DNA of 64,000 bases, from contig CAYNIW010000001.1 in assembly GCA_964397545.1 (NCBI GenBank), positions 24,714 to 88,713 of the forward strand, written 5' to 3'. Of this stretch, positions 4,084-60,483 are shown piece after piece (the first letter of the stretch is position 1; each line of letters starts with the position of its first letter). The notes below the pieces were generated by a model. It was not told the DNA's origin. It did no database searches and saw only the letters and a list, made by a program, of their open reading frames with translations. This DNA is from an uncultured Desulfuromonadaceae bacterium (lineage in GTDB: Bacteria; SDB-A). The position numbers were made by a program, and so were the translations under genes.

Positions 4084-4139
4084 TACGAGAATATTATATT
4101 TGTTAAAATCTCAACTGTAAAGGAAACGGAATTTTCATT

Positions 4140-7100
4140 TTAAGGCGCGTCTATTTTTCCGAGGATTTTTCGGACAACCCTCCTTCTCTTAAATCGGGCT
4201 AATTCATGTTCTGTCTTAAATGACCTGCAGTAGTTTCCTATCCAGGACAGACATTTAGTTTTGATTTTGACAAAAACCGCTGGTGAATCCCCGAATACGG
4301 ACAGCAAAGCATTTAACTCGTGGCCTTCTTCCGGCAAAGATTTTGACGATGAAATATAAGGCTTGAGTATGTTTCTCGCAGAGTCGAATTGTCTTTTTTG
4401 GTCTGTTTTCAAGAACACTACTGCCGTTGCAGTTCTGTAGCTGATTTGGAGATCTTCGCTGGTTTCATTTTTCAACTTTGAATAAAGTCTATGAAAATCG
4501 CTTAAATAGGGCTCAAAAGCCTCTATCCTTTGATTTTCAGCACAATGCAGCAGGATAAGCTCTAAAATGTAGAATTCCATGGTTTTTGACTTGAGCTCGC
4601 GAAAGACTTTCTGAGCTTTTTCTAAATATCCAATTGAGCGGGAAATTTTATCTTTATTGTATTCGACTTCCGACAGTCCGAGATTGTAATAGCCTTCGCC
4701 GAGGAGATTGTCAATTTTCAAATTTAGTCTATGGTAGCATTCAAGCCATTGCACTGCTTCTTCATTATTGCCGAATTCGGCAAAATGAGTCGCTATGTTG
4801 TATGAAGTTATGGCTTCACCGAGGCTGTATCCTGTTTTTCTGTCAATGTCGTTGGCTTTTCCATAAGCGGAAAGAGCCTTGTGCGGTTTTCCCATACTGT
4901 CGTATATAACGCCAAGATTGTTGTAATTAGTGGAAAGCAGAGACAAAAGATTCAGTTTAGCAGCCTTTTTTTCAATTTCCAACCGGATTTTGAGAGCTTT
5001 CTCGGGTTGCCCTTTTTCATTTAATATGTCGGCGAGTTTGCCTCTGTAAGAAAGCGAGACGGAATTGTTTTTATTGAGCAGAAGCTTTTTTGCTCTGTCA
5101 AGAATTGTATGGGAGTGGTTGATATCGCCGAGGAAATACAAAGCGTCGGCTTTATTCATCAGAAGTTTGAAAACAAGACCTTTTTCGATTTTGTTGTTTT
5201 TTTTCGCAAGAGAAAGTCCCTTTTCAATAAATGTCAAAGATTCTCTGTAACGGCTTGTTCTTAAAAAATGAGCGGAGATTTCAAGATAAAAAAGCGCTTT
5301 TTCGGATGAATTGAGGGAAAGTGAATTTATTCTGCCGAGAAAAAAAAGTGATTTTTTATGATTGCCGCAAAATCCGTATATTCTTCCTGCTATCATGAGA
5401 TAATCGAACATAAGCTTTTTAGAGGGTGAAAAAAGTCCTTGTCCAATTATTTCTTCACATTTTTCGAGACAGTCTATCGCGTGATGGAAAGAATAACGCT
5501 TCTCGTCGTATTGCGAGGAGAGAAGAAAATACTTAAAAGCTTTTTCGTAATTTTTGGACATTTGGGCATGGTGCGCCATTAATTGTGCGAAAGACATATC
5601 TTTTGATCTGGAGTTTTCAAGATACTTAAACATCTCGCCGTGAAGCCGTATCTTTTCTTCATTTGTTATGCTCGAGTATATAGTGTCTCTTATCATGATG
5701 TGGCAAAAAGAATATTCGCCGTTTGATGTCTGTGAAATGAAATTTTTTTCCGTGGATTCATTGATAGTTAGATTGCCGGAAATGCCTTTAACCGACAGGA
5801 TCATCTCTTTTTGAAAAGTATAACCCGCGACGGATGCCGCCTCCAAAAAGGCTTTTGTTTTGTCTCTCAAAATGTCAAAACGGCTCATTATTATTTCACC
5901 GACGGTTTGGGGGACTGTAAAATTTTCAATCGCTTTACCGGTCCACATATTTTTGTCTTTCCAGAGGATTTTTCTATCTATGAGCATTTTTGTTATCTCC
6001 TCTAAATAAAGAGGATTCCCCTGGCAGTGATCGAGGATTTGAGTTCGCAATTCAGCCGGTATATTTTCGACATTTAAGATAAAAGAAATCAACTCCTGTG
6101 ATTCGGATTTCTGAAGAGGGAACAGTGCGATTTGATGCAGGCGTGAAAATTTAGAAAATTTTCCCATGTATTCTGAAAGGATGTCTCCGGAATCACTCGA
6201 ACGTGAAATCATGACAATCAATGCTTTTTTAGGCGGGAGCTCCCTTGCCAGAACTTCAATGAGGTCCAACAGCGGTTTTTTTGCCCAGTGAAGGTCTTCA
6301 AAGATAAAAATTTTTCTTTTTTTACCGGAGTGTTCAACACTCAGTTTTGAAAGTTCAGCGAGAATTTTCAACAAAAATCTAATCTTCGGTTTTTCAGAAT
6401 CAATGGAAAATTTCCCCGTGAAAAAATCAATAAAAGTGTCCGCGGCAAGGTTATGATAAGAGATGCTGCTCTTTTTAAGAAAATTTCTGAATTTTATGAG
6501 GTCTTTTCGGGTCAGATCTTTAATTGAAAATTCCGGAAGAAGTGATTCAATGAAAGATTTGACACCGCTGAAACTATCCGCCCCGTATGGTATTGATCTG
6601 GCTTTTATGGTTTCTGATCCTTTCCAGACCTTTCTTTTCAATTCTTCCACGAACCTTGTTTTTCCAACGCCGGGTTCTCCCGTGACCAGAAGCATCTTGT
6701 TTGAATTGTCGTTTTTATTAAGAAAATTTATTACAGATAAGAATTCCTTTTCCCTTCCGACAAAAGGAACACTGGCCCATTTTATTCCGCGCCTGCTCTG
6801 TCTTCTTATTTTTTGAGACAAGAGTTTATGAACATCTACAACATTTTTTTTTCCTTTGAATCTGACGCTTTGGACAAACCGAGTGTTGAAAAGATGCGAT
6901 ACGTCTTTCCGGACTTTATGGCTAATGTATATCTGATTTTTTGGGCATATCTGTTGGAGCCGGCTCGCGACATTAATCGCGTCTCCTACTATTGAAAGGG
7001 ATGATTTTCCGTTGACGTCTATTTCTCCGCAGAGGAGGTCGCCGGAGTGGATCCCTATGTGAAAGGAAATCGGAATACCCGCTGATTCGGTGAGAATCGC

Positions 7101-7364
7101 GGAAGATTTCCTTATTTCAAGGGCTGATAAGACAGCTCTCTCATCCTGATTTTCCAGGGATAAAGGCGCTCCGAAGGCAAAGACTATCTGATCTCCCACA
7201 GTCTGATATAAAAAGCCTCCAAATTTTTTCGCGATTTTATCGGCTCTGCAGAAGACAAGTTCGAGAATTTTTTTTACTTTTTCCGGGTCATTGTTTTCAG
7301 CTATGGATGAAAATCCTGCTATGTCCACAAAAAGAAGAGAGCAAAATCTACGGGATGTCTTCAT
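4140..7364 (-). CDS. Class III adenylate/guanylate cyclase domain protein with AAA/STAND-type NTPase and C-terminal TPR repeats
   Basis: N-terminal cyclase motifs FVDIAGFS, TVGDQIV, GIHSGDLLCGEI, VGDAINVASRLQ; Walker A GEPGVGKT; long TPR-like C-terminal half; 1074 aa. Confidence 0.75.
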   Translation of the reverse strand: MKTSRRFCSLLFVDIAGFSSIAENNDPEKVKKILELVFCRADKIAKKFGGFLYQTVGDQIVFAFGAPLSLENQDERAVLSALEIRKSSAILTESAGIPISFHIGIHSGDLLCGEIDVNGKSSLSIVGDAINVASRLQQICPKNQIYISHKVRKDVSHLFNTRFVQSVRFKGKKNVVDVHKLLSQKIRRQSRRGIKWASVPFVGREKEFLSVINFLNKNDNSNKMLLVTGEPGVGKTRFVEELKRKVWKGSETIKARSIPYGADSFSGVKSFIESLLPEFSIKDLTRKDLIKFRNFLKKSSISYHNLAADTFIDFFTGKFSIDSEKPKIRFLLKILAELSKLSVEHSGKKRKIFIFEDLHWAKKPLLDLIEVLARELPPKKALIVMISRSSDSGDILSEYMGKFSKFSRLHQIALFPLQKSESQELISFILNVENIPAELRTQILDHCQGNPLYLEEITKMLIDRKILWKDKNMWTGKAIENFTVPQTVGEIIMSRFDILRDKTKAFLEAASVAGYTFQKEMILSVKGISGNLTINESTEKNFISQTSNGEYSFCHIMIRDTIYSSITNEEKIRLHGEMFKYLENSRSKDMSFAQLMAHHAQMSKNYEKAFKYFLLSSQYDEKRYSFHHAIDCLEKCEEIIGQGLFSPSKKLMFDYLMIAGRIYGFCGNHKKSLFFLGRINSLSLNSSEKALFYLEISAHFLRTSRYRESLTFIEKGLSLAKKNNKIEKGLVFKLLMNKADALYFLGDINHSHTILDRAKKLLLNKNNSVSLSYRGKLADILNEKGQPEKALKIRLEIEKKAAKLNLLSLLSTNYNNLGVIYDSMGKPHKALSAYGKANDIDRKTGYSLGEAITSYNIATHFAEFGNNEEAVQWLECYHRLNLKIDNLLGEGYYNLGLSEVEYNKDKISRSIGYLEKAQKVFRELKSKTMEFYILELILLHCAENQRIEAFEPYLSDFHRLYSKLKNETSEDLQISYRTATAVVFLKTDQKRQFDSARNILKPYISSSKSLPEEGHELNALLSVFGDSPAVFVKIKTKCLSWIGNYCRSFKTEHELARFKRRRVVRKILGKIDAP

Positions 7365-7371
7365 CCTTTTT

Positions 7372-10300
7372 TCAGAATCTGAATTCAGCCCAGATGTTTA
7401 AACCTACGTTCCTTATTTTTCTGCCTGTCTGCCTGTCTTCATTTATAGTGTATATGCCGTTCATTCCGCCGGTCACGTTCTGTGAAAAGTTATATGAAGC
7501 CGTGGGAGCGACTGAATAGTTTGATCTGAAAGAAACTATTTCTCCAGAAGTCCTGTACATTTCTTTCGCAGTACTGTAATTGTAAGCAAGAGAAAAAGTC
7601 ATAAGGCTGTTGAAGCGCAATGTCCTCCCGAAAAAAGGAAGACCGCCGGGAGCCGAAAAACTGTAGCTCACTGTCGCGGAATAAGAGTTGTTGAGCTGTC
7701 TGAGATATGTCTTTATTACACCGAGATTATCAATATCTGTCTGGGATCTCGTGGTCGAAAAATTGGTCAGGAAACCTTTCTTCCATCTGACCTGAAAAGA
7801 AACAAGCGGAGACATGTCGAGAGCCAGAGTAGTTCGCGTAGGTTCCTGATTTTCAGGTCCGGATTTCGATCTTGTCGTAGTAAAACCTGTTGAAATTGTC
7901 GAATTTTCAATAGCGTCAAGTTTCATAAATTTTTGAATATTCAGAAGGCTGACCGTTAATCGGGGCCATACTGTTGTTTCCGTGTATGTCATGTTGCCGA
8001 CATTTCCGCCGAAATTCCGGGACCAATTAAAGTGAACACCGGCAGTCAGGTTCGTAAAATTCAATCCGGAATTGCCAGAAAAACTGTATAACCATCCGAA
8101 ATAATCATTCGGAGAGACGTATTTCCCTGTCTCTTCGGGGTCCACATTTTCCAAGAAACCAAGCTGATATCTCCAGTCCGGAAGAGAAGTAAGTCTGTAG
8201 AGCCGGGTTGTTCTCGTCCTTGAAACGGTCAGGTTCAAAGGGGAAAGGTTCCTGCCGAATTTACCGAAATTCATTAAAAACCATTGCGGTGAGCCAGGCG
8301 AGGACAAAGAATCCTTGCTTTCATCCCTTATCTTTCCTATAAATTCGAAGGGCTGAACGAAACTGACTGTTGTGTTGAAGGATAGAGTGTTTGTATTGGA
8401 AACATTGTATATATCGGCAGTGTCGTAAGGCATTCTCAGCTCCGGGCGCGTATCTTCAGTATAGTTCGTTTCGAAAGTCACTGTCGGCCTGATGAAAGAC
8501 AAGGGAAGGGGACTGTATCTTGCCGTCACTCTCTGGGATTTGATTATCTGCCTTCCGAGCATATAGTCGGAGATCTCAAGATCCCGGTTTTGAGTGAGAG
8601 AATATGTGAAACTCATCGGTTTTAATAAGTTGTAGCCCAGCGTCAGAGTGGTATTGAGATTTCTCTGCAGAAGGCTCGCTAGAAGCTGACCTGAGGTGTC
8701 GGGTATGAGATGGGAAGTGACTTTTGTGTAAGAATATGTGGACGTGAAGCTTATAATATTCAAGAATGTTCCTATTTCCTGTCCAGCAAACCTCAAGGGT
8801 TTTACCGTTGGGTTATGGGACCATGTGTATGTGGCTGTTTTGACCCAATTGGAATCCGCTCTGTTATATGTTATGTTGTTGTTGTTGGACCAGGAATAAT
8901 TGAATCTCGAATGGTCTATCATCAGCGACACAAGGGTATTTAAGGATTTGCCGGATTTAGAGAGAGAGAATGAAAAGTGCCTTGTCTCGGATGACGATGA
9001 TTGTTCTCTCGACTCTTCGGGATTGAGCCTTATGTCTGATCCCGGGTAGAATTTTGGATAACTGTTGGTTTTCGAATAAGAAGCGGTCAGAGGGAATGAC
9101 AGCATCCATCTCGAAGGAAAAATTTTTCCCCCTTGGAAAGTAGCGTTTCCGGAATAATTTAAGGCAGTGGAGCCGCTTCCCCGCTCTTCGGTTATCCTCT
9201 GGTAGTCGGCGTCGACCTTGTAACCCGCGAGATTGACGGACAGGACATCTCCAAAAGTCATCCCCACATTTATATTTGTCGCCAAACCTCTTTCTCTGTA
9301 TGGCGAGACGAGCCTCAGATCGTTCATCCATATTTCGCCGTCAAGACCCATGGTCTGATTTTCGTTGACGACGCTCAGTGTCGTCCTGTTTATTTTAGTG
9401 AGAGAAGGTTTGTTCGCTCCGTAGGTGGTTATGTAATAATTCCCCGAATTCCAAGTTCCGGTTGTGTCTCCTTCGACTGTTTTTTTAAGATCAATAAACT
9501 TATCAAACTCAATTGACAATTCCTGCCATCCGTTGGGAATTGGCGTTCTGTATTCGTAATAGGAAAGGGTATCTCCGCCGAATTTTATAGAAAAATATCC
9601 ATCCTGTCCGTCTCCGTGGACATACAGAAGCATCTTTCTGTAATTATTGTAGTTGTCAGCCATGACAGTGGAGTAATAACAGCTTGCGGTTCTTCTGTAG
9701 CCTATGTTTCTCAGGACAAAAGCGAGGGATTGCTCTCTTTTTGTGTTGCCGTAATTGTCCCTTCCGGGGTCGAATGGAGGATAATACCCCGGATCATCGT
9801 AGTTATTTCTTGTCGTCACTTCGAAAAATTCTTCCGGGATGGGAATCGCTGTCGAGTCCGCTGAATAGATGTCGTTTCTCTTCCATCTGTTTCCTGAAAC
9901 GGAAATTCCTCCGAAGACAACAGAGTCTGTCCCGGTGAATCCGTCTATCCATATTCTTGCGTATCTTACTCTTTCCCAGTCAGGAGATCCGACATAGGTT
10001 CCTACGCCGCTGTCGTGAAGAGGTATCTTGAATAACCTCCAGCCGTTGCCTCTGTCTATGTCGAGAAACAAAGTGTCATCCACGGAAAATGAATATTCGA
10101 CGAAGTCTCTGGACATGTTGAGGATTCCGTCTCCGTTGAGGTCTTCCGTGTCGAGAATTTTGTTGTTTTCAGTGCCCTTGAGCTGTCTGTATGTGGACTG
10201 GTTTACGTCGTCAGGATAGTCGTCGTTCCATTCGTCTCCCGGTATGCGGTCCGCGTCTTTTCCCGCCACTCCGTCGAGTCCCACGTCTTCGCCTATATCG

Positions 10301-13038
10301 AGAACGCCGTTTCGGTTTCTGTCTTCAGTGTTCAATAAACCGTTCCAGCCCCCGATAGAGTCGTTGACGCCCGTTCTTCTCGCAACATCTTCTGTAATAT
10401 TGTATCCCAGGTCAATATTTACGTTTCCTCTTTCGCCGTAAACCCAGACTTCAAGATACCTGAACTGAGTAAGGTCAGCTCCAGTTTTTGAAATGCACTG
10501 CTGGACTGAGACATAGGATGAAGGCGATCCGTTTCTCGGTTCGATGACGAGGCTGAGGACCTGAATGTTGTCGTTTCTCTCCTGCTCGGGAAGATTCGGG
10601 TAAAGGTTGCCTTTTGTGAACCAGTCGTTGGGGCTGTACCAATATACCCGGCCGAGGTCCGAAGTATCTTTATAGACGGGAGAACTGCCGATAATATCGT
10701 CGGGGACACTTCCGAAGTGCCAATTCGCTCTGCTGACGCCGAGGTTCAGAGACATTTTGTTTCCATCCATGTCGTCGAGATAGACAAATCCCTTTGTGTT
10801 CGGATTCGGCATAGAGACGGCTACGGCTCCCCTGATTGTCAGAAGAGACGGGGCGGTTGTGCTAATCAAAGGCAGAATGTCCACAGCTTTAGTCATTATT
10901 GAAGGCCTGAAAGTCATGTTAGCGTCAATAGTAGCCATTGTAATATTTCTCGGTTCATTTCCGAGTTGTGGATGTTCTTCTTTTGTGCTGATACTGCGAT
11001 ACATTGCAGTAGCGCCGATGTTAATCGCCGGCGACACGTTGTAATTGAATCTCACACCGAGAAGGGATTTGTCCGCCAAGCTTATAAAAGGCGCGTATTG
11101 AAAATCAATATTTACTACGGCATTTACGTCGTTGACTTTGTCCGTTATGAAAGTGATTATTCCGATGTCGTAGTCAATAGTATAGTCAATATTGCGGACA
11201 AGTCTTTCTCCGTTTACTGTTACGACTTCGGATCCTTCGAGGATGTTCATCGCTCCGAGAGAGAAAACAGACCTGACACCTTTGTAAGAGAGGACGAGTT
11301 TGTATTTTCTACCGACGTTTGTCGAAGTCGTATCGTAGATTATGGAGTCCGGATCGAGAAGGACAGTGCTGGAGAAAGGGAACTGCAGTGTATCTGGAAA
11401 TGATATGAATCCTCTGTCGTAATCTACATATCCGTCGTCTATGTATCCATTGTCGTCATCATCTAGCCCAAGCAGTCTCAGGTAAGTGGTCCCTCCCTGT
11501 GTTTCTTCATCTGTTCCGGAACCCGTATTGTGTTTGTATATTTTAAGCTCAAAACTGCCGGGAACGACTGCCGTCGATCTGAGAGAGTACCTGTTTCTTA
11601 TCTGAAGATCCCAAGTCGGGTAATATGTCCTTTCGACTAAAGGCTTGAGGACTTTTATATCTATCGTCTGGGAAGTGTCATAGACGTCCTGAACAGTTCC
11701 AACCGTGTCCACCCGTATTACCTGCCCCCCCGGAGCATTTCTTCTGTTTATGACGTAGCAAACACCGAGTGCGTTATTTTCATTGAGAGGGATCCTGAGT
11801 TCGAGGACTTTGCTCTGGTAGTTGAATATGAAAAAGTTGTTTGTTCCCGCTTCCTGAGGGTCGAAATAACCCAGGGGCAGAACGGTGTCAGGGTAAGGGG
11901 AGGCAGTATAGAAGCGAAGTCTTCCCTTAATCGCCCCGGTGAGGGCGTTGTTTGTTCCGTTGTTGTCGTCAACCCATACAATCAGTTTTGTTATCGTATC
12001 GTATGGATTGATGTCGCCGATGGAATCGCCCGGCAAACCTAGTCTGAAATACTGTCGTCTTATGTAATCGGTGTCCCAGAGGACTAAAGTATCTACTGTC
12101 GCTCTGCCCACGAAAGTTCTGCGTTCTGATTTGCCCTCTTCTTTTGAAGCAATTGCAATGATATTTATCCCTGCTATCTGCATTTCTGATTTTATTCCGA
12201 AAAGGCCCATCTGTATTGGAGGCATTCCGATAAGTTCCGTCCCAGGAAGAGAGAGCTGAGTGTGTCCCATTTCTATCAGGTGGATGATTTCATCCTGTTC
12301 TCCCATATATTGAAGCCTTATCTTGTTTTTCAGGTCTGCCTGAGCTTCGCTGTTGTGATCGACGAAGACGTTGATTTTCTCCCCTATCGTCCCCTGAAGG
12401 TTTACATTGAGCTGTTGCTTCATCTCGAGCTCGGGAAGAAAGTCATTTTGGCTGTATTCTGTCTGAATCGCATTCAGGTCAGTTGACTGACTCCCTCCGA
12501 ACTGAATTCGCTGTGACCCGCTGATTTTCAGATTTCCGCCTTGGCCTATAAAGCCGGCAATAGCCCTGGGCATTCTGATAGGCAGTTCAATGTCGGGTAT
12601 CAGACCCTGATTTGAAAGGGTCTGCTGCTGTTGAAGGTAGGAAACAGTGTAGCTTGCGAGTTTATCCTTCAAAGTAGTAGTGTATGCGTAAGATTTATAG
12701 TCTTCTACCGACTTGATGTCTTGTGTCCACAGGACGAGAGAGTCGAAATATGCTTCTTCTATTAGAATACCCCTGTCGGGAAGAATAGTCTGTCTGAATT
12801 TAAGTTTTGAAAAGTTTCTGAACAGATAATCTCTCATCATATTTTCTATAGGGGAATGAAAACCGGTTTCCTGAGCGACTAAAACCGAATTGAGCCCCGC
12901 GGTGAACAGGACAGCTCGGAGTATAAAGATCAGAAAAATAAATCTATGAGCTTTTTTCAATATTTTTTTTTTTGCAGTCAATAGCTGAAAATAGCTTATT
13001 AAATACGGTTTTATAATTTTCATTGAAACCAAAACCAA
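7372..13038 (-). CDS. sprA: Giant outer-membrane beta-barrel protein, SprA-like (candidate T9SS translocon)
   Basis: 1888 aa; signal-peptide-like N-terminus; Y/N/T/S/G-rich strand-like sequence throughout; Asp-rich calcium-binding-like stretches; terminal aromatic residue (...WAEFRF); a T9SS C-terminal-domain cargo is present elsewhere in the window. Start could also be the in-frame Met at 13023. Confidence 0.5.
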   Translation of the reverse strand: MVLVSMKIIKPYLISYFQLLTAKKKILKKAHRFIFLIFILRAVLFTAGLNSVLVAQETGFHSPIENMMRDYLFRNFSKLKFRQTILPDRGILIEEAYFDSLVLWTQDIKSVEDYKSYAYTTTLKDKLASYTVSYLQQQQTLSNQGLIPDIELPIRMPRAIAGFIGQGGNLKISGSQRIQFGGSQSTDLNAIQTEYSQNDFLPELEMKQQLNVNLQGTIGEKINVFVDHNSEAQADLKNKIRLQYMGEQDEIIHLIEMGHTQLSLPGTELIGMPPIQMGLFGIKSEMQIAGINIIAIASKEEGKSERRTFVGRATVDTLVLWDTDYIRRQYFRLGLPGDSIGDINPYDTITKLIVWVDDNNGTNNALTGAIKGRLRFYTASPYPDTVLPLGYFDPQEAGTNNFFIFNYQSKVLELRIPLNENNALGVCYVINRRNAPGGQVIRVDTVGTVQDVYDTSQTIDIKVLKPLVERTYYPTWDLQIRNRYSLRSTAVVPGSFELKIYKHNTGSGTDEETQGGTTYLRLLGLDDDDNGYIDDGYVDYDRGFISFPDTLQFPFSSTVLLDPDSIIYDTTSTNVGRKYKLVLSYKGVRSVFSLGAMNILEGSEVVTVNGERLVRNIDYTIDYDIGIITFITDKVNDVNAVVNIDFQYAPFISLADKSLLGVRFNYNVSPAINIGATAMYRSISTKEEHPQLGNEPRNITMATIDANMTFRPSIMTKAVDILPLISTTAPSLLTIRGAVAVSMPNPNTKGFVYLDDMDGNKMSLNLGVSRANWHFGSVPDDIIGSSPVYKDTSDLGRVYWYSPNDWFTKGNLYPNLPEQERNDNIQVLSLVIEPRNGSPSSYVSVQQCISKTGADLTQFRYLEVWVYGERGNVNIDLGYNITEDVARRTGVNDSIGGWNGLLNTEDRNRNGVLDIGEDVGLDGVAGKDADRIPGDEWNDDYPDDVNQSTYRQLKGTENNKILDTEDLNGDGILNMSRDFVEYSFSVDDTLFLDIDRGNGWRLFKIPLHDSGVGTYVGSPDWERVRYARIWIDGFTGTDSVVFGGISVSGNRWKRNDIYSADSTAIPIPEEFFEVTTRNNYDDPGYYPPFDPGRDNYGNTKREQSLAFVLRNIGYRRTASCYYSTVMADNYNNYRKMLLYVHGDGQDGYFSIKFGGDTLSYYEYRTPIPNGWQELSIEFDKFIDLKKTVEGDTTGTWNSGNYYITTYGANKPSLTKINRTTLSVVNENQTMGLDGEIWMNDLRLVSPYRERGLATNINVGMTFGDVLSVNLAGYKVDADYQRITEERGSGSTALNYSGNATFQGGKIFPSRWMLSFPLTASYSKTNSYPKFYPGSDIRLNPEESREQSSSSETRHFSFSLSKSGKSLNTLVSLMIDHSRFNYSWSNNNNITYNRADSNWVKTATYTWSHNPTVKPLRFAGQEIGTFLNIISFTSTYSYTKVTSHLIPDTSGQLLASLLQRNLNTTLTLGYNLLKPMSFTYSLTQNRDLEISDYMLGRQIIKSQRVTARYSPLPLSFIRPTVTFETNYTEDTRPELRMPYDTADIYNVSNTNTLSFNTTVSFVQPFEFIGKIRDESKDSLSSPGSPQWFLMNFGKFGRNLSPLNLTVSRTRTTRLYRLTSLPDWRYQLGFLENVDPEETGKYVSPNDYFGWLYSFSGNSGLNFTNLTAGVHFNWSRNFGGNVGNMTYTETTVWPRLTVSLLNIQKFMKLDAIENSTISTGFTTTRSKSGPENQEPTRTTLALDMSPLVSFQVRWKKGFLTNFSTTRSQTDIDNLGVIKTYLRQLNNSYSATVSYSFSAPGGLPFFGRTLRFNSLMTFSLAYNYSTAKEMYRTSGEIVSFRSNYSVAPTASYNFSQNVTGGMNGIYTINEDRQTGRKIRNVGLNIWAEFRF

Positions 13039-13870
13039 GCGCTTTCCTGTTGCATGCTTTCACGCATTCACCGCATAGAAAGCAATTTCCGGAAGTAACA
13101 GCTTTTTCAATAGGCAGTTCGATGGGACATGCTTTTTCACAGAGCCCGCAAGACGTGCAAGCCTCCTTATTAATCCGGACTCTTATTAAACTGAACCTGC
13201 CGAAAAAAGAAAATACAGCGCCGACCGGACACGCCAGTCTGCAAAACGGCCTTTTCGAATAAATAGAAAAAACGAGAAAGGCGAGCAGAATCGAAAGCTT
13301 AAGGGAAAACATGGATTGGGCCAGATCCCTCAGCGACCCGGAGGCGGTTCCGAAAGCAATAAGAGGTATTCCCGCTTCGAAAGAACCCACAGGGCAAAGT
13401 TTACAAAACCACGGCTCTCCTGTGACGGAAGGCAGGAAAACAATCATTGAAAAAAAAACAAGATATTTAACGTTGGTGACAGGGTGAGGAATTTTTATCT
13501 TTAGAGTTTTAATCCGGTTGAGAAGCGCCTGGACAAGTCCGAAAGGGCAAAGCCAGCCGCAGACGAGTTTGCCTAATAAAAGTGAAATCGAGATAAGAAA
13601 ACCGAAAGCAAAGCGAGGAACAACCGTCGCTCCAGCGAGATGCCTGTATGTGAAAATGTGCTGTGTTACTCCTACAGGACAGGAAAATGTCGCCGAAGGA
13701 CAACTGTGGCAGTTGATGAAAGGAGTACAAAATCGCTTGGCTGAGCCCGTGTAAATTCCCTGGCTGAATCCTTTTAAGTAGCTGTTGAAAACGAAAAAAG
13801 AAAGCCCTCCGAAAAGAAAACGAATTTTTAAGAGAATTCTCATCATTCTATTCCTATGCATGAAAGACAT
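12944..13870 (-). CDS. 4Fe-4S binding membrane protein (NapH/MauN-like polyferredoxin)
   Basis: Repeated CPFG/CPVG membrane motifs and two CxxCxxCxxxCP ferredoxin motifs (CTSCGLCEKACP, CFLCGECVKACN). Its 3' end overlaps the annotated sprA-like start by about 90 nt. Confidence 0.65.
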   Translation of the reverse strand: MSFMHRNRMMRILLKIRFLFGGLSFFVFNSYLKGFSQGIYTGSAKRFCTPFINCHSCPSATFSCPVGVTQHIFTYRHLAGATVVPRFAFGFLISISLLLGKLVCGWLCPFGLVQALLNRIKTLKIKIPHPVTNVKYLVFFSMIVFLPSVTGEPWFCKLCPVGSFEAGIPLIAFGTASGSLRDLAQSMFSLKLSILLAFLVFSIYSKRPFCRLACPVGAVFSFFGRFSLIRVRINKEACTSCGLCEKACPIELPIEKAVTSGNCFLCGECVKACNRKALGFGFNENYKTVFNKLFSAIDCKKKNIEKSS

Positions 13871-14183
13871 ATACGCGAGGCATAGGATTTATATTCGGAA
13901 AGCTCGGAGGTGATTATTGATTTACTCGAATGAGAAGACCCCGATAAAAGCAGTTTAATAGAAATAATCAGCAGATAAATAAACATCAAAAGCTTAAGAT
14001 ATGCGAGTTTTTTGTTTCGGGAAAAACAGAGGATTATTAAAAACGAGGCTAGGACAAAAATGGGGTATAAAACGAAAGAAGGGACGTTGAAAGGAAAGAT
14101 TATTTTTGAAAAAACATCTAAAAAATGGACAAAGTAATCGAGTATATTCATAAAAAAAAGACTTCTCTATGTGAGGGTTACTT

Positions 14184-14375
14184 TCAATCCTTTGACTTTT
14201 TTTTGAAAAAAGGGAAAGCAGCGAAAATTAAAACGCCGATTGCCAGCAAAATCCAGAAAGCTTCCAGATTTGTTCCCCGGATTACGAACCTGGACCCCGT
14301 GAAAACAGTGACCAGTTTCAGAGCAATACCGGCGGTAAAAATCACCGCCCCAGTTATCAAATCGCCTTTTTTCAT
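14184..14375 (-). CDS. Small hypothetical membrane protein (two predicted TM helices)
   Basis: 63-aa ORF with two hydrophobic helices and a lysine-rich tail; no homology recognised. Confidence 0.3.
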   Translation of the reverse strand: MKKGDLITGAVIFTAGIALKLVTVFTGSRFVIRGTNLEAFWILLAIGVLIFAAFPFFKKKSKD

Positions 14376-42935: not shown

Positions 42936-44672
42936 ATGAAAGGAAGAACTTGGACGGCTTTAATGCTCGCGGTCTCTCTGGTGTCGTTTTTCTGCACGCC
43001 GAAAGAGATAATCAAAGAAAAAGTAGACGACTGGCAGTATTCCATAGACAGTTTTGAGGACGAGGAATACCTGAAAAGGTCATTCGGCGGAAGTCAAATG
43101 TCGTCGCCTGTGATGACAGGAGGAAGGTCTCAGATTTCTTATGAAAACTTCGCCCCCGATGACGAACTGGGATTTTCCGTCGGCGGTGCCAAAGACATCA
43201 ACAATTTCAGGGAAAATATAGAAAACGGATATCTGCCTCTGCCGACAGACATAACTGTAGAAGGCATATATTACGATTATTTTTTCGAGACTGGAATGAC
43301 AAAACCATGTGAAAAACTTTTCTGCCCCTCATACAGCAGAGCCGTGTCTTATGACCCTTTCACGGGGGAACCTGTTTACTATCTCTCGGTCGGTCTCAAT
43401 TCAGGTTTGAAAGAGAGCGATTTTTCGAGAAAGAAGCTGAACATCGTAGTCGTTCTCGATATTTCAGGATCCATGGATTCACCTTTCAACAGGTATTATT
43501 ACGACAGGTTCGGCAACACGCAGGAGGTTGAAGATGAAGAGGATTTCGACAAGTCCAAGATGGAGATAGCCAATTTGGCGGTGGTAGATCTCATGGAACA
43601 TCTGGGGCCGGAAGACAGACTCGGCGTAGTTCTCTTTGACGACATGGGATATCTCGCAAAACCTTTGAGAAGAGTAGATGAGACCGACATGGAGAGCATA
43701 AAGGGGCACATCCTTGAAGTAACAGCTCGCGGCGGAACGAACATGGAAGCAGGAATGATGATAGCGACGGCTCTTTTCGACAGTCTGGAAAACCTCGACA
43801 TGTCCGAATACGAAAACAGAGTTATTTTCCTTACAGACGCGATGCCCAATACAGGCTCGACTGACGAGAACAGCCTTTTCGGAATGTTTAGTAAGAATTC
43901 GGAAAGAGGAGTATTCACTACTTTCATAGGTGTTGGTGTAGATCTGAACACGGAACTCGTCGAAATACTGACAAAGATAAAGGGGGCGAATTACTTCAGC
44001 GTCCATTCACCTTCCGCTTTCAGAGAGCAGATGGACGAAAATTTCGATTTCATGGTGACCCCGCTCGTATTTGACCTTGAGCTCGTTTTAGAGGCGGAAG
44101 GATTCGAGATAGAAAAAGTTTACGGCTCCCCGGAAGCTGACCTCGCCACGGGAGAGATAATGAAAGTCAACACGCTTTTTCCTTCAAAGAGGACTGAAGG
44201 TGAGACAAGAGGCGGCCTCGTCCTTCTCAGGCTGAAAAAGACTTCCGAAGACGGAGAAATCTCCTTGAGTGTTTCATACGAAGACAGAAACGGAATAAAA
44301 GACGGAGAGACCCAGTCCATTGAATTCAGCTCTTCTGAAGAGGAATACTATGAAAACTCCGGCATAAGAAAAGGAATCCTTCTGGCAAGATTTGTCGAAC
44401 TGTCAAAGAGCTGGCTGGCAGATGAAAGGGCGCAGGGCTTATATCTCGAAGACGCGCCTCTCGTGTCGAGAGGTTCCGGCATAACAGTTTTCGACGAGAG
44501 AAAACTCGAACTCGGAAGATGGGAGAGACAGTCCATGTCCCTCAGCGTGTCTTCCCACTATACAGAATTATTTGAGGATTTCGGGGATTATTTTGAAAGA
44601 GAAGCTATGGCTATAGGCGACACGGCGCTTTCAAGAGAGCTCGATATAATCAGAAAACTTTCAAGCATGTAA
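42936..44672 (+). CDS. von Willebrand factor A domain lipoprotein
   Basis: Lipoprotein-like signal peptide with Cys; MIDAS motif LDISGSMDS; 578 aa. Confidence 0.7.
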   Translation: MKGRTWTALMLAVSLVSFFCTPKEIIKEKVDDWQYSIDSFEDEEYLKRSFGGSQMSSPVMTGGRSQISYENFAPDDELGFSVGGAKDINNFRENIENGYLPLPTDITVEGIYYDYFFETGMTKPCEKLFCPSYSRAVSYDPFTGEPVYYLSVGLNSGLKESDFSRKKLNIVVVLDISGSMDSPFNRYYYDRFGNTQEVEDEEDFDKSKMEIANLAVVDLMEHLGPEDRLGVVLFDDMGYLAKPLRRVDETDMESIKGHILEVTARGGTNMEAGMMIATALFDSLENLDMSEYENRVIFLTDAMPNTGSTDENSLFGMFSKNSERGVFTTFIGVGVDLNTELVEILTKIKGANYFSVHSPSAFREQMDENFDFMVTPLVFDLELVLEAEGFEIEKVYGSPEADLATGEIMKVNTLFPSKRTEGETRGGLVLLRLKKTSEDGEISLSVSYEDRNGIKDGETQSIEFSSSEEEYYENSGIRKGILLARFVELSKSWLADERAQGLYLEDAPLVSRGSGITVFDERKLELGRWERQSMSLSVSSHYTELFEDFGDYFEREAMAIGDTALSRELDIIRKLSSM

Positions 44673-44859: not shown

Positions 44860-46878
44860 TTAGTTGACTCTTGTAAATTTGCCAGTGAAAATGTTCGAGC
44901 CGGCAGTCACTTTGTAGAAATAGACGCCGTTTGAGACATTTTCGGAGTTCCACGAAAGAACTGAAGCCTGATTGACGGTTCCGGTGAAAGGAACAGCCAC
45001 AAGCCTTCCCGTCGCGTCGAAAACCTCGAAACTGACCGACGAAGAAGAAGGAACTGTAACAGCGAGTCTCAAGATACTTCCGACCTGCGCGAGAGACCTT
45101 ACCGAGAAAGTTTCAGGAGCGGCTATCGGATTTTCTTCGACTGCGTTGGGTATCCTGATTGTGACATCGTCAATATAGAATCCGGGATAGGCCACAGAGC
45201 CGTCGGATCCGAAATCCCACTGCAGCCATATTGTCTGTCCGCCGTAGGAAGAAAGATCCATCATATACTGGTTCCATGCGTTCATTCCGGCTACGTGTCC
45301 CGTCCATATCGCCTGTCCGTTGAGCGGATTTGAAGTGTTCGCCGTTCCAGTGTATGCTGGTGTTACGCCGTTGAAAATCGAGAAAGTGGTTCCGTCGGTG
45401 GAAATCTTCATGTTTCCGCCGTCGTAGCTGGCTTCGGTGTCCCACCACATCCAGAAGAAGCATTCCGCGACTGACATGTCGGCAGGAAGCGTTATTCCTG
45501 GGGTCGTAAGCTGGGCGTTTGCACTGTTCGGATAGTTTCCCGCAAGAACGGTAGCCCATACGTTGGATCCGCTATGTGCCGCTCCGGGTCCTGAAGTCGG
45601 TGCTCCCCACTGCCAGACATTCGCCGTTCCCGTTACCGTCATGTCTCCGCTGTCGGCTTCAAAGTCCTCGACGTAGAGATCGACGAACAGGAAAGTGTGG
45701 AAGTCAACCATTACGGTGTCGTTGCCGGGAGCTAGACCGGGTTCTGTGATGAAGGTGGCAGTGAAGTTGTGCCTATACCACCAGGATGTCCAGGTCGGAA
45801 ATACGCAGTGGAAAGAATCTCCGACTGCGAGGTTCGAAACCTGAATGGATTCAGAGTAAATTACGCCCGAAACCGATTCTTCTATTGTCAGATATGTCCA
45901 GAAAGACTGAGGTCCTGAACTCGTAGCGGAATTGAAGACCCAGCATTCAGGAGTCATGGGAGTCGCCGGAGGATAGAAGCCCTCGACGGGAACATCAACA
46001 TGGAGAATTCCGACGTCGTCCATAGAAAGAGCTATGGCGTAAGCAAAGTCCTGGTCTCCCTGGCAGAATCCGATAAGACAGGGGCCGAAACCGAGGAAGT
46101 TGGGGTAGTAATCTCCCCCGCCTGCCATTTTGTTTGTAAACCCGGCGGCAAAAGCCGGAACGGCGCAGTAGAGGGTTTCTCTCGTCCAAGTTCCGTTGTG
46201 GTAGTTGAGGCCGAACCATGTGCATTCCCATCCGCCTGGGTTTGTCACCTGTCCGTGATACCACACTTTGTCGTTTTCCGGAACCAGAGCTGATCCGTAA
46301 ACGGCATAATCACCTGTTCCGCTCCAGGGTGAACCGCTCTTCTGAAATCTTCCCATGGAAGTGCCGAAGTTTCCTGTCCAGAAAGTGTCTCCTGGGACCC
46401 AAGCCATTGCCCTGTTGGGGTTGGACTGTCCCGTATATGTGTTGACCTGAGTCATCGAAAAAGGCGATAGACCCACGACGTAACCTCTGACTCCTGTCCC
46501 TGACTGGTCTCCGGCGTAGATCGTGTCGCCGGCGTCTCTGTCCATGTCTCTGTGCCCCCATGTTCCGGCGGCCTGTCCTGTCTGATTGACAGAGGCGACA
46601 TATGTTCCTGATACGTAGTTTATCAGAAGAAAAACAGGCTGTGCTGTGTTGGCGTCTGTGATTATCATGAGAGAGTCGTCTATGACCTCGACTCCGAGGA
46701 GTCTGTTGCTCGCGACTCCGCCGAGTCCTTCAACGACGAGAGACCACACCAACGGCAGTTCTATGGCGTCGTTGTTATCCGGTAGAGAAGGGATGAAAGG
46801 CGCTCTGTCGGTGTTGTCGTTAGCGAGCATCGGCGCGGCAATCATGGCGAAAACCGCAAGTATTACCATTAACCTCAT
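44860..46878 (-). CDS. Secreted protein with type IX secretion C-terminal sorting domain (T9SS cargo)
   Basis: N-terminal signal peptide; C-terminal ~80 aa carries CTD hallmarks FEVFDATGRLV ... GVYFYKV ... GKFTRVN; 672 aa. Confidence 0.75.
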   Translation of the reverse strand: MRLMVILAVFAMIAAPMLANDNTDRAPFIPSLPDNNDAIELPLVWSLVVEGLGGVASNRLLGVEVIDDSLMIITDANTAQPVFLLINYVSGTYVASVNQTGQAAGTWGHRDMDRDAGDTIYAGDQSGTGVRGYVVGLSPFSMTQVNTYTGQSNPNRAMAWVPGDTFWTGNFGTSMGRFQKSGSPWSGTGDYAVYGSALVPENDKVWYHGQVTNPGGWECTWFGLNYHNGTWTRETLYCAVPAFAAGFTNKMAGGGDYYPNFLGFGPCLIGFCQGDQDFAYAIALSMDDVGILHVDVPVEGFYPPATPMTPECWVFNSATSSGPQSFWTYLTIEESVSGVIYSESIQVSNLAVGDSFHCVFPTWTSWWYRHNFTATFITEPGLAPGNDTVMVDFHTFLFVDLYVEDFEADSGDMTVTGTANVWQWGAPTSGPGAAHSGSNVWATVLAGNYPNSANAQLTTPGITLPADMSVAECFFWMWWDTEASYDGGNMKISTDGTTFSIFNGVTPAYTGTANTSNPLNGQAIWTGHVAGMNAWNQYMMDLSSYGGQTIWLQWDFGSDGSVAYPGFYIDDVTIRIPNAVEENPIAAPETFSVRSLAQVGSILRLAVTVPSSSSVSFEVFDATGRLVAVPFTGTVNQASVLSWNSENVSNGVYFYKVTAGSNIFTGKFTRVN

Positions 46879-58157: not shown

Positions 58158-58494
58158 AAAATCCTCCGTTTAAATGATAAAAAATATTTTATCAAATTAT
58201 CAGACCAAAAGAATACAAAAAACAGAAAAATCCACTGCGAAAGACTATCCGGTGTCATATATCTATACGAATTTAATAAGAAAGGACCAGATATTTTATG
58301 GTTACATAAAAAGCGTAACACGAAGAAAAATAAATTAAAGAAGAGGATTTAACCGCGAATTAACCTAAAAAGAAAATTAATGAATATACAAAATACTTAT
58401 CCAGAAAAGATCTCTTTTCCAAATCTACGTCTCTATAAAAAAAAGCACAGCCGCGCCGCTGACAGCAAACGCATGTAATAAATCGTTTTCTTTA

Positions 58495-59331
58495 TTATAT
58501 CTTTATTTGAAATACAAGAAAATATCCGTTGAAATGATGTTTCAATTTGAATGAAGTAAATATTTTTATTTCTTTTCTTGTAAAAGTTTTGTCCATTTTG
58601 TTTAAAGCAGTTTCCTTGTCAGTTTCAGAATGATATGGTAAAATGAAATTCAAAGTATTATCTGAAATTTCAGGGTATTTTTTTTCATTGAGTATGTTTC
58701 CTTCGGCTTTTACTTCAGTCATAATACGAAATCGAAGCTTCACCGATGCTTTATTAACATTTCTAACTTTGCTAAAATTTTCCTGTTCTGAAAATATTGA
58801 TGTTAACAATTCTTTGATTTTTGGCGTAATTTTTATATGTCTTTCAGTTAATCGTTCATTTAATACCTGTGAAAACGACGAACTGATAAGTTCTCTGGTT
58901 TGTATGGTTTCAAAGAAACTGCCATGAATCAATGCTATTTTTTGAGATGCCTTTTTTTTATTTTTACCTCTAACTAGATAATATACTTCTCTAATAGGTA
59001 ACGAATAAATATTATCTCCTGCGTCAACCATTTGTTGTCTAATGATACTATTTTCACCTTTTATAACTTTTTCAATTTCTTTTTTCCCTGTTGGAATAGT
59101 AGAATTAAATGAAGAAACAGTATAAGTATCGCTATCCTTAAGTTCTATTAACTCTCCACCAGTAAAAAGAGAATTATTAGATGTAAGTCTAATAGCTAAA
59201 TCAGGGAATTGACCTTTGTTTTGACATGATAACAATGAAGTATCAAAAGGAAAATCCTCTAATTTTACAATATTAATAAATTGTTTCTTTTGTAAAACCA
59301 AAGACTTGAAAAAATGATAAATAGAATACAT
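58495..59331 (-). CDS. Candidate Type II restriction endonuclease (PD-(D/E)xK-like), cognate of the adjacent methyltransferase
   Basis: Start overlaps the methyltransferase stop (TAATG); possible PD ... ELK catalytic motif (FPDLA ... GGELIELK); AT-rich codon usage; no other recognisable domain. Confidence 0.4.
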   Translation of the reverse strand: MYSIYHFFKSLVLQKKQFINIVKLEDFPFDTSLLSCQNKGQFPDLAIRLTSNNSLFTGGELIELKDSDTYTVSSFNSTIPTGKKEIEKVIKGENSIIRQQMVDAGDNIYSLPIREVYYLVRGKNKKKASQKIALIHGSFFETIQTRELISSSFSQVLNERLTERHIKITPKIKELLTSIFSEQENFSKVRNVNKASVKLRFRIMTEVKAEGNILNEKKYPEISDNTLNFILPYHSETDKETALNKMDKTFTRKEIKIFTSFKLKHHFNGYFLVFQIKI

Positions 59332-60439: not shown

Positions 60440-60483
60440 TCTCATCGAGGAGAATTGACAAAATCTGTCAATAGTCAAGACCA
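60440..60483. repeat. 44-bp imperfect direct repeat, copy A (flanks the brnTA cassette)
   Basis: atctcatcgaggagaattgacaaaatctgtcaatagtcaagacc; about 84 percent identical to copy B at 61162-61205 in the same orientation. Confidence 0.6.

What the first reader, a model, noticed from the sequence alone, without database searches (positions are those of the whole stretch)
4140..13038. SprA-like giant outer-membrane protein followed, with an 8-bp gap, by an adenylate-cyclase/AAA/TPR signalling protein
The 1888-aa candidate T9SS translocon ends at 7372 and the cyclase-STAND-TPR gene starts at 7364 on the same strand, so they are probably co-transcribed. Linking a T9SS or gliding translocon to a cyclic-nucleotide-generating STAND NTPase would be an unusual regulatory arrangement; the cyclase retains its metal-binding Asp residues and Walker A motif. 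The sprA call itself is moderate-confidence.
Basis: partly seen in the sequence, partly recalled or inferred. Interest (0 to 1): 0.5.

Follow-up and report, generated by a model that had tools for sequence, protein, structure and literature searches.

The report
SprA translocon gene abutting cyclase-STAND gene
In an uncultured WOR-3 bacterium, a genuine type IX secretion pore gene (sprA) sits 7 bases upstream of a gene for a cytoplasmic cyclic-nucleotide-making sensor, but the pairing occurs in only one small clade, so it looks like inherited gene order rather than a demonstrated new way of controlling secretion.

Summary
Both genes lie on the minus strand. sprA runs 13023..7372, its TGA is followed by a 7-nt spacer, and the ATG of a 1074-aa cyclase/STAND/TPR gene is at 7364 (gene 7364..4140).

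The large protein passes the NCBIfam SprA/Sov equivalog model (432 bits, cutoff 200). It is collinear with solved F. johnsoniae SprA.

The downstream protein is a class III cyclase with intact metal-binding and transition-state residues. Its substrate-specifying pair is non-canonical (Gln/Ser). It is fused to a MalT-type STAND NTPase and about 11 TPR hairpins, and it is cytoplasmic.

The pair, with 5-8 nt spacing, recurs in six WOR-3 lineages (SprA at least 62% identical), but so does the whole SecDF-to-NadE block. The pair is absent in:
- a lineage nested in that clade by the SprA tree (L025);
- nine more distant lineages whose sprA 3' flank could be read (two further loci are cut off inside sprA).

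Two populations that are 95% identical at the nucleotide level through sprA drop to 65% exactly at the cyclase ATG.

Co-transcription is plausible. Regulation of T9SS by cyclic nucleotide is unsupported. Both proteins are new members of known families. Interest is low to moderate.

The parts
14184..14375 (-). Small ORF (63 aa, two hydrophobic segments); first gene of the same-strand cluster
   Evidence: A 60-64 aa ORF sits at the same position in L002, L004, L007 and L009. No Pfam or NCBIfam search was run on this ORF.
13843..14151 (-). Small hydrophobic ORF (102 aa), overlapping the next gene by 28 nt
   Evidence: tblastn finds it at 44-88% identity at the same position in L001-L007. No Pfam family at E<=1e-5 and no PADLOC match.
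12944..13870 (-). NapH/MauN-like polytopic ferredoxin (Fer4_5 x2 plus a 4Fe-4S dicluster), immediately upstream of sprA and overlapping it
   Evidence: PF12801 at 77.5 bits. TIGR02163 at 85 bits, below its cutoff of 213. Conserved upstream of sprA in all clade members including L025.
7372..13023 (-). sprA/sov: short-form (about 1870-1888 aa) T9SS outer-membrane translocon. The start is ambiguous (13038 TTG, 13023 ATG or 12981 TTG).
   Evidence: TIGR04189 at 432 bits, cutoff 200. PF14349 at 57.5 bits. Collinear with F. johnsoniae SprA 6H3I over residues 198-1356. dN/dS 0.044 against L028.
7365..7371 (-). 7-nt spacer AAAAAGG between the sprA TGA and the cyclase ATG
   Evidence: The spacer is 8, 7, 6 and 5 nt in L002, L004, L007 and L009, and its sequence is not conserved.
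6810..7364 (-). Class III nucleotide cyclase domain (aa 1-185)
   Evidence: PF00211 at 68 bits. Aligned to Cya2 2W01 and CyaB 3R5G. D14, D58, N131 and R135 are invariant; Q54 and S124 sit at the substrate-specifying positions. The model superposes on solved cyclases at TMt 0.85-0.93, rmsd about 1.8 A.
5955..6773 (-). STAND (AAA_16/MalT-type) P-loop NTPase (aa 198-470)
   Evidence: PF13191 at 50 bits. Walker A G229-T236 and Walker B E356-D357-L-H-W are invariant in 60 homologues. The best fold match is 6MFV, a STAND-TPR protein, at E 1e-12.
4140..5954 (-). Helical/winged-helix linker (aa 471-640) and TPR superhelix (aa 641-1074), plus the stop codon
   Evidence: TPR_12 at 53 bits. The AlphaFold model has pLDDT 88.8 and shows paired helices from 568 to 1072. 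This is the fastest-evolving part of the protein (dN/dS 0.205).
4093..4121 (-). Promoter-like TTTACA-17-TATAAT between the cyclase stop and mgtC, marking the probable 3' limit of the sprA-cyclase transcription unit
   Evidence: 11 of 12 consensus matches. A TATAAT 7-12 nt before the mgtC start is kept in L028, L002 and L007.
44860..46878 (-). T9SS substrate elsewhere in the window: a 672-aa protein with an InhA-like MAM domain and a C-terminal type A sorting domain. It shows the organism has T9SS cargo.
   Evidence: TIGR04183 at 35.1 bits, cutoff 23, at residues 607-668. PF20773.

Best explanation
This is a lineage-specific, same-strand gene cluster of a candidate division WOR-3 bacterium: two small membrane ORFs, a NapH-like ferredoxin, sprA, and a cyclase-STAND-TPR gene. 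Its last two genes are a real short-form SprA/Sov T9SS translocon and a cytoplasmic multidomain nucleotide cyclase. Shown: both family assignments, the intact catalytic and P-loop residues, purifying selection on both genes, and the 5-8 nt spacing in six lineages. Inferred: the cyclase gene is transcribed as the terminal gene of the sprA transcript. Reasons are that the spacer has no room for signals, the nearest promoter-like match inside sprA is about 1.1 kb upstream, and mgtC downstream has its own conserved -10 element. Translation probably starts by re-initiation or SD-independent initiation. Inferred by analogy with MalT-type STAND proteins: the protein works as a switch. The TPR array binds an unknown cytoplasmic ligand or protein, NTP-dependent oligomerisation of the STAND module brings two N-terminal cyclase domains together, and a cyclic nucleotide is made. 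Which nucleotide is uncertain because of the Gln54/Ser124 pair. The link to SprA is most probably no more than shared transcription inherited as gene order within one WOR-3 subclade. The two proteins act in different compartments (outer membrane versus cytoplasm). The pairing has been broken in a nested lineage, and the two genes have separate recombination histories.
For: Family assignments. Residues. Organism: L001 and L029 come from a WOR-3 MAG. Adjacency with 5-8 nt spacing in the window, L028, L002/3, L004-6, L007/8 and L009/10. The whole block (SecF-SecD, small ORFs, NapH-like, SprA, cyclase, MgtC, NadE) is syntenic in the same loci. Pair absent in L025, where SprA is 66% identical, the NapH-like gene is kept upstream, and NJ bootstrap places it inside the clade 100/100. 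Other downstream neighbours in more distant sprA loci are Band_7, PBP2, YceG, RimP-NusA-IF2 and aldolase. A generic family member (P0011) has no T9SS neighbour. Nucleotide identity between L002 and L004 drops from 95% to 65% at the cyclase ATG; amino-acid identity is SprA 97% against cyclase 59%. dN/dS is 0.044 for SprA and 0.18 for the cyclase. mgtC -10 element. Published T9SS regulation is PorXY/SigP, and the word 'cyclic' does not occur in the review PMC5445135.
Against: The junction stayed tight while the cyclase diverged to 32-34% identity. Genes were gained or lost just downstream of the cyclase but never between sprA and the cyclase. In two lineages that span the deepest split of the clade (L004-6, L009/10), the gene after the cyclase is an orthologous BNR-type protein (45% identity). 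In L004 it carries a T9SS type A sorting domain. The ancestral order may therefore have been translocon, cyclase, cargo, which is thematically suggestive. No transcript data exist. The rest of the genome could not be examined for cNMP receptors. The SprA tree used to place L025 may not equal the organism tree, because this block recombines.
Confidence: 0.55

Rival explanations
1. The cyclase-STAND-TPR protein is a dedicated regulator of the T9SS. It is co-expressed with the translocon, senses a cytoplasmic cue such as cargo load or envelope state, and emits a cyclic nucleotide that tunes secretion, gliding or cargo gene expression through an unidentified cNMP receptor.
For: The 5-8 nt spacing is conserved while the cyclase sequence diverged to 32-34% identity. 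An orthologous BNR-type cargo gene lies directly after the cyclase in L004-6 and L009/10; the type A sorting domain is above its cutoff in L004. Catalytic residues are intact and the gene is under purifying selection.
Against: The pair is restricted to one subclade. It is lost in the nested lineage L025 and absent from the nine more distant lineages whose sprA 3' flank is readable. The surrounding housekeeping genes are equally syntenic, so conservation is not specific to the pair. A recombination breakpoint lies exactly at the junction, so SprA and cyclase alleles are freely re-assorted. No cNMP-binding, CRP-like or other T9SS gene was found among the window ORFs scanned. No cyclic-nucleotide control of T9SS appears in the literature searched.
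Confidence: 0.17
2. The cyclase-STAND-TPR protein is a conflict or immune sensor of the kind proposed for cyclase-STAND fusions. The TPR array recognises an invader protein and the cyclase produces an alarm nucleotide. Its position after sprA is incidental.
For: The allele diverges abruptly (59% aa) between two populations whose flanking genes are 87-99% identical. It is the fastest-evolving gene of the block, with the TPR part fastest. It shows weak similarity to PycC models, 55 bits. A 2026 preprint defines an 'immune clade 1' of cNMP cyclases fused to STAND NTPases (doi 10.64898/2026.08.12.744502).
Against: It occupies the same chromosomal position in a housekeeping context across deep divergence, not in a defence island. 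dN/dS of 0.18 indicates ordinary purifying selection. No cNMP-binding effector (TIR or TM) is adjacent. NadE shows the same allele jump (64%), so the mosaic is explained by plain recombination. The PycC score is below the generic PF00211 score. The NTPase is AAA_16/MalT-type, not NACHT or AP-ATPase; NB-ARC scores 21.5 bits, below its cutoff.
Confidence: 0.1
3. The two genes are adjacent but not co-transcribed. A promoter inside the 3' part of sprA drives the cyclase independently, so even the transcriptional link does not exist.
For: Consensus scans cannot exclude non-sigma-70 (FCB-type) promoters. The recombination breakpoint at the ATG shows that the cyclase gene behaves as an independent module. 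The cyclase gene is lost independently in L025.
Against: There is no promoter-like match within about 1.1 kb upstream of the ATG on the minus strand, and no convincing terminator. The only hairpin, at 7366-7353, spans the start codon and is not conserved. The spacer is 5-8 nt in all six lineages.
Confidence: 0.15

Closest known systems
SprA/Sov, the T9SS outer-membrane translocon (F. johnsoniae SprA, PDB 6H3I/6H3J; NCBIfam TIGR04189)
   Same: Scores above the equivalog cutoff (432 against 200 bits). Has collinear homology over most of its length to the solved protein. Has an N-terminal signal-like sequence. T9SS type A cargo is encoded in the same window.
   Different: About 1870-1888 aa against 2403 aa, with only about 25% local identity to Bacteroidota SprA. 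It belongs to a short form found in WOR-3, TA06, Latescibacterota and related MAGs. Its barrel architecture and its partners (PorV, plug, PPI) were not examined.
Mycobacterium tuberculosis Rv0386 (and Rv1358, Rv2488c): class III cyclase + MalT-type ATPase + TPR + LuxR HTH
   Same: Same N-to-C order of cyclase, STAND ATPase and TPR, and similar length (1085 aa). Rv0386 also has Gln at the first substrate-specifying position, and its guanylyl cyclase side activity is attributed to a Gln-Asn pair (preprint 10.1101/2024.03.06.583649; the Q57/N106 detail is from my own knowledge of Castro et al. 2005).
   Different: The window protein has no C-terminal HTH (no such Pfam hit), so it has no built-in transcriptional output. 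Its second specificity residue is Ser, not Asn. It comes from a different phylum.
PH0952-type STAND-TPR protein (PDB 6MFV) and MalT-like STAND switches
   Same: Best structural match for the NTPase-helical-TPR part (Foldseek E 1e-12 over 781 columns). Walker A and B motifs are intact.
   Different: 6MFV has no cyclase effector. The global TM-score is low (0.19-0.29), which indicates a different relative domain arrangement.
Pycsar PycC cyclases and the proposed cyclase-STAND 'immune clade 1'
   Same: Class III cyclase fold with weak PycC HMM hits (55 bits). It is a cyclase fused to a STAND NTPase, as in the preprint's immune clade.
   Different: No adjacent cNMP-binding effector. Stable syntenic position among housekeeping genes. 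AAA_16-type rather than NACHT or AP-ATPase. The PycC score is lower than the generic cyclase score.
PorXY-SigP regulation of T9SS genes in Porphyromonas gingivalis
   Different: PorX/PorY are a two-component system acting through an ECF sigma factor (PMC5445135). No nucleotide cyclase is involved, and nothing here shows regulation.

Membership tests
SprA/Sov T9SS translocon (TIGR04189) | Whole-protein score above the curated equivalog cutoff | tested here: met
   432 bits against a cutoff of 200, E 4.9e-129. PF14349 SprA_N at 57.5 bits against 27.
SprA/Sov T9SS translocon (TIGR04189) | Collinear homology to the experimentally solved SprA | tested here: met
   6H3I_A at E 8.9e-33 with the single sequence and 5e-45 with the profile. 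Four collinear segments map residues 198-1356 to 168-1633.
SprA/Sov T9SS translocon (TIGR04189) | Giant (36-strand) outer-membrane beta-barrel | not tested
   At 1883 aa the protein exceeds the 1200-aa limit of the structure predictor. It is about 500 aa shorter than F. johnsoniae SprA.
SprA/Sov T9SS translocon (TIGR04189) | The organism has T9SS substrates and other T9SS components | tested here: inconclusive
   One type A CTD cargo in the window (TIGR04183 at 35 bits against 23) and one in relative L004 (40 bits). No GldKLMN, PorV or PorU was found among the window ORFs scanned. The rest of the genome was not available.
Class III adenylate/guanylate cyclase (PF00211) | Domain score above gathering threshold, and the cyclase fold | tested here: met
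   68.2 bits against 21.9. The model superposes on 2W01, 5OYH and 3R5G at TMt 0.85-0.93.
Class III adenylate/guanylate cyclase (PF00211) | Two metal-binding Asp residues plus the transition-state Asn and Arg | tested here: met
   D14, D58, N131 and R135 are invariant in 6 orthologues and at least 98% conserved in 60 homologues.
Class III adenylate/guanylate cyclase (PF00211) | Canonical substrate-specifying pair (Lys + Asp/Thr for ATP; Glu + Cys/Ser/Gly for GTP) | tested here: not met
   Q54 aligns with K of CyaB and E of Cya2. S124 aligns with T of CyaB and G of Cya2, and is F in P0006. Activity is likely, but the nucleotide made is undetermined.
STAND NTPase, AAA_16/MalT-like | P-loop domain above threshold with Walker A and Walker B, followed by a helical/winged-helix module and a repeat sensor | tested here: met
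   PF13191 at 50.3 bits against 32.6. GxPGxGKT and EDLHW are invariant. The model and the 6MFV match.
Pycsar (PycC + cNMP-activated effector) | An adjacent effector gene with a cNMP-binding domain fused to TIR or TM | tested here: not met
   The neighbours are SprA and MgtC (or a BNR-type protein). No PADLOC hit for the neighbours and no cNMP_binding domain in any locus gene list.
TOMM system kinase/cyclase fusion (TIGR03903) | Score above the equivalog cutoff | tested here: not met
   160.6 bits against a cutoff of 705.75. No kinase domain is present.
Rv0386-type cyclase-ATPase-TPR-LuxR regulators | C-terminal LuxR-type HTH DNA-binding domain | tested here: not met
   No HTH family among the Pfam hits. 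The model is TPR-like helical hairpins to the C-terminus.

The most novel reading that the evidence does not exclude
In this WOR-3 subclade the T9SS translocon, a cytoplasmic cNMP-generating STAND sensor and (ancestrally) a T9SS cargo gene form one functional module. The sensor is made in step with SprA and uses a cyclic nucleotide, possibly not cAMP given the Gln/Ser specificity pair, to couple secretion capacity to cargo expression. This would be the first second-messenger control of a type IX system, and it would lie outside Bacteroidota.
Probability: 0.12. Interest if true: 0.6.

Novelty: new member of a known kind. Interest (0 to 1): 0.3.

Why it matters
If the coupling were functional, it would add cyclic-nucleotide signalling to the short list of T9SS regulators, which so far is PorXY/SigP. 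It would also give an entry point into T9SS biology in uncultured FCB-group phyla. As the evidence stands, the value is more modest. It documents a confidently assigned short-form SprA in WOR-3 together with T9SS cargo. It adds a well-modelled cyclase-STAND-TPR protein with a non-canonical specificity pair. It also serves as a caution: tight, conserved spacing within a syntenic clade does not by itself show functional coupling.

Tried and rejected
- The genome-contig scan with SprA returned only one locus (L001), and it is cut off inside sprA.
- Exact look-ups of the window cyclase and of P0001 found nothing.
- Rfam found no RNA family in the window.
- The small hairpin over the cyclase start codon (7366-7353) was considered as a translational attenuator. 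I rejected it because it is not conserved in L002, L004, L007 or L009.
- The PycC hits in PADLOC were treated as generic class III similarity, because they score below PF00211 and no effector is adjacent.
- The TOMM kinase/cyclase hit is far below its cutoff.
- A weak TIGR02217 phage-tail hit within SprA (18.7 bits against 136.65) was ignored.
- Literature searches for WOR-3 plus T9SS, and for SprA plus cAMP, gave nothing relevant.
- The held text of PMC2447327 was only partial and gave no usable passage.
- dN/dS for the L002/L004 cyclase pair was not computed, because at 65% nucleotide identity synonymous sites are presumably saturated.
Full report
**1. What is in the sequence**

Both genes are on the minus strand.

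- The large ORF runs 13038..7372 (1888 aa from a TTG).
- More plausible starts are ATG 13023 (1883 aa, the start called in the near-identical contig L028) or TTG 12981 (1869 aa, P0121). Each precedes a signal-peptide-like stretch.
- The sprA TGA occupies 7374-7372. A 7-nt spacer AAAAAGG follows, and the ATG of the 1074-aa ORF (7364..4140) comes next.
Otherwise the coordinates are right.

**2. Identity of the large protein**

- It passes NCBI's equivalog model for the T9SS translocon Sov/SprA: TIGR04189 at 432 bits against a cutoff of 200, E 5e-129. Pfam SprA_N scores 57 bits.
- It is collinear with solved F. johnsoniae SprA (6H3I) over residues 198-1356.
- Its homologues are called SprA in WOR-3, KSB1, Cloacimonadota, Ignavibacteria and other MAGs.
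- It is a short form (about 1.85 kaa against 2.4 kaa).
- The window also encodes a T9SS substrate, a 672-aa protein at 44860..46878 with a type A sorting domain above its cutoff.
- The sprA call is therefore sound. The barrel architecture itself was not modelled because the protein is too long for the predictor.

**3. Identity of the downstream protein**

- Pfam finds a class III cyclase domain (aa 8-175, 68 bits), AAA_16 (aa 200-384, 50 bits) and TPR_12.
- No signal peptide or transmembrane segment is evident, so it is cytoplasmic.
- A 60-sequence AlphaFold model is confident (pLDDT 88.8, pTM 0.80).
- The cyclase domain superposes on solved cyclases at TMt 0.85-0.93.
- The remainder best matches the STAND-TPR protein 6MFV.
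- The metal-binding residues D14 and D58 and the transition-state residues N131 and R135 are invariant in the six orthologues and at least 98% conserved in 60 homologues. The same holds for Walker A (GxPGxGKT) and Walker B (EDLHW).
- The substrate-specifying pair is non-canonical. Q54 aligns with Lys of CyaB and Glu of Cya2. S124 aligns with Thr and Gly respectively. In the wider family Lys/Thr dominates: 39 of 60 have Lys and 25 of 60 have Thr.
- The enzyme is thus probably active, but the nucleotide it cyclises cannot be read from the sequence.
- M. tuberculosis Rv0386 has the same cyclase-ATPase-TPR order and also has Gln at the first position. It has a guanylyl cyclase side activity, but it ends in a LuxR HTH, which is absent here.

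**4. Organism and relatives**

- The closest genome record is a candidate division WOR-3 MAG (L001 and L029, GCA_016929715.1).
- Orthologues of the cyclase exist at 83, 55, 51, 47 and 32-34% identity.
- Below that level the hits are generic family members at about 25% identity, from Chloroflexota, Actinomycetota and others.

**5. Is the adjacency conserved?**

In the window and in L028, L002/3, L004-6, L007/8 and L009/10, sprA is followed after 5-8 nt by the cyclase gene. The spacer sequence is not conserved and has no consistent Shine-Dalgarno motif.

The same loci share the whole neighbourhood. SecF-SecD lie on the opposite strand. Then come two small membrane ORFs, a NapH-like Fer4_5 protein, sprA and the cyclase. 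Next, in some loci only, comes a BNR-type protein, followed by MgtC (absent from L009/10). NadE on the opposite strand closes the block. Conservation of the pair therefore cannot be separated from general synteny.

Outside this group the pair is absent:
- L021 (SprA 38% identical) has Band_7 downstream.
- L022 (33%) has PBP2.
- L024 (34%) has a convergent YceG.
- L011, L014, L015, L016 and L017 (about 29%) have RimP-NusA-IF2.
- L018 and L019 have a convergent aldolase.
- L012 and L013 are cut off inside sprA and say nothing either way.

The most telling case is L025. Its SprA is 66% identical and the NapH-like gene is still upstream, but sprA is followed by a small ORF, a GNAT and a Mut7-C gene. 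In an SprA neighbour-joining tree, L025 falls inside the clade with L009 outside, in 100 of 100 bootstraps. The simplest reading is loss or relocation of the cyclase in that lineage.

A generic family member (P0011) sits among ribosomal-protein and peptidase genes.

**6. Separate evolutionary histories**

- Between L002 and L004, nucleotide identity is 92-99% across SecF, SecD, the NapH-like gene and all of sprA. It falls to about 65% within 100 nt of the cyclase ATG.
- At the protein level the identities are SecD 99, SprA 97, NapH-like 95, cyclase 59, MgtC 87, NadE 64, hyp217 89, Ogg 81 and OMP 92%.
- Each arrangement was assembled independently more than once (L002/L003; L004/L005/L006), so a chimeric assembly is unlikely.
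- A recombination breakpoint therefore coincides with the junction. sprA and cyclase alleles are re-assorted, which is not what a co-adapted pair would predict. The position of the cyclase gene is nonetheless kept.
- In the unsaturated pair window/L028 (dS about 0.45-0.5), dN/dS is 0.044 for sprA and 0.18 for the cyclase. The TPR part is 0.205 and NadE is 0.17. The cyclase is a functional gene under ordinary, looser constraint.

**7. Transcription unit**

- The spacer cannot hold a promoter or terminator.
- The nearest promoter-like match on the minus strand is about 1.1 kb inside sprA.
- The only hairpin at the junction spans the start codon and is not conserved.
- Between the cyclase stop and mgtC there is an 11/12 match, TTTACA-17-TATAAT. 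A TATAAT 7-12 nt before the mgtC start is conserved in relatives.
- The cyclase is therefore probably the last gene of the sprA transcript, and mgtC is probably separate. This is inference; no transcript data were available.

**8. One point in favour of a T9SS theme**

In L004-6 and in L009/10, the gene after the cyclase is an orthologous BNR-type protein (45% identity, E 2e-139). These two lineages lie on either side of the clade's deepest split. The L004 copy carries a T9SS type A sorting domain above its cutoff. The L009 copy has only a weak, sub-threshold FlgD_ig-like hit at its C-terminus. The ancestral order may thus have been translocon, cyclase, cargo. This is suggestive but weak, because the cargo gene has its own long upstream region and ribosome-binding site.

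**9. Interpretation**

The best-supported reading (confidence about 0.55) has three parts:
- A genuine sprA and a genuine, probably active cyclase-STAND-TPR switch are co-transcribed in one WOR-3 subclade.
- The switch would work like other STAND proteins. TPR-mediated sensing leads to NTP-dependent oligomerisation, then cyclase dimerisation and cNMP output.
- The link to T9SS is inherited gene order rather than a dedicated regulatory mechanism.

The rivals are:
- A true cNMP-T9SS regulatory module, about 0.17.
- An immune or conflict STAND sensor, about 0.10. The allele jump, a weak PycC similarity and a 2026 preprint describing cyclase-STAND 'immune clade 1' prompt it. Stable synteny, the lack of an effector and the equal allele jump in NadE argue against it.
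- Adjacency without co-transcription, about 0.15.

Known T9SS regulation is PorXY-SigP. The 2017 review does not contain the word 'cyclic', and literature searches found no link between WOR-3 or cAMP and T9SS.

**10. Verdict**

Both proteins are new members of known families. The pairing is clade-restricted and of unproven significance. Interest is 0.3.

Noticed in passing
L002:9990-10200 versus L004:9990-10200 (equivalent to window about 7364): Two WOR-3 populations are about 95% identical in nucleotides across SecF, SecD, the NapH-like gene and sprA, then drop to about 65% exactly at the cyclase start codon. The cyclase (59% aa) and NadE (64% aa) are divergent islands among genes that are 81-99% identical. 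This is a recombination or allele-replacement mosaic.
   Followed up: partly
L004:13343-14959 and L009:12651-14051: An orthologous BNR-type protein (45% identity) follows the cyclase in two deeply separated lineages. The L004 copy has a T9SS type A sorting domain above its cutoff; the L009 copy has only a weak FlgD_ig-like C-terminal hit. The gene is absent from the window, L028, L002 and L007, which implies repeated loss or replacement at this spot.
   Followed up: partly
window 12944-14375 (minus strand): Two small hydrophobic ORFs (63 and 102 aa) and a NapH/MauN-like polytopic 4Fe-4S protein overlap one another and the sprA start. The NapH-like/sprA link persists even in L025, where the cyclase is gone. 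A membrane ferredoxin in an operon with sprA is unexplained.
   Followed up: partly
window 4093-4121 (minus strand): A near-consensus sigma-70-like promoter lies about 10 nt before the mgtC start, and its TATAAT is conserved in relatives. This suggests a leaderless or very short-leader mgtC mRNA.
   Followed up: partly
window 58000-62000: A low-GC island (0.30-0.32 against 0.42-0.50 around it) carries an N6/N4 DNA methylase (59331-60209, minus strand). An abutting 278-aa ORF with no family match (58495-59331) could be its restriction partner. This is probably a horizontally acquired R-M system.
   Followed up: no
window 44860-46878 (minus strand): A 672-aa protein with an InhA-like MAM domain and a T9SS type A C-terminal sorting domain. 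It is a T9SS substrate about 32 kb from sprA.
   Followed up: partly
P0006 / L009:8923-9003: The most distant orthologue, and many generic family members, carry an N-terminal zinc-ribbon (CxxC...CxxC; PF13240) ahead of the cyclase domain. The window lineage has lost it.
   Followed up: no
L019, L021, L024 (upstream of sprA): In several distant lineages sprA is transcribed divergently from lptF/lptG (LPS export permease genes). This recurring outer-membrane-biogenesis neighbourhood is absent from the window clade.
   Followed up: no
L001 and L029 (GCA_016929715.1 contigs 40 and 27) versus L028: The public MAG is broken inside sprA, whereas a Logan assembly of SRR13394437 joins the two pieces. 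In L028 the gene caller did not call the NapH-like gene upstream of sprA, although the DNA aligns to the window there at 86-90% identity.
   Followed up: partly
window 42936-44672 and 61919-63466: VWA-domain and BatA-like (aerotolerance operon type) proteins are present. The rest of the window is housekeeping: TGT, acetate kinase, HisRS, MnmG, S2-Tsf-PyrH-RRF, UppS, Dxr, RseP, Ddl, CysRS, PurA and histidine ammonia-lyase.
   Followed up: no
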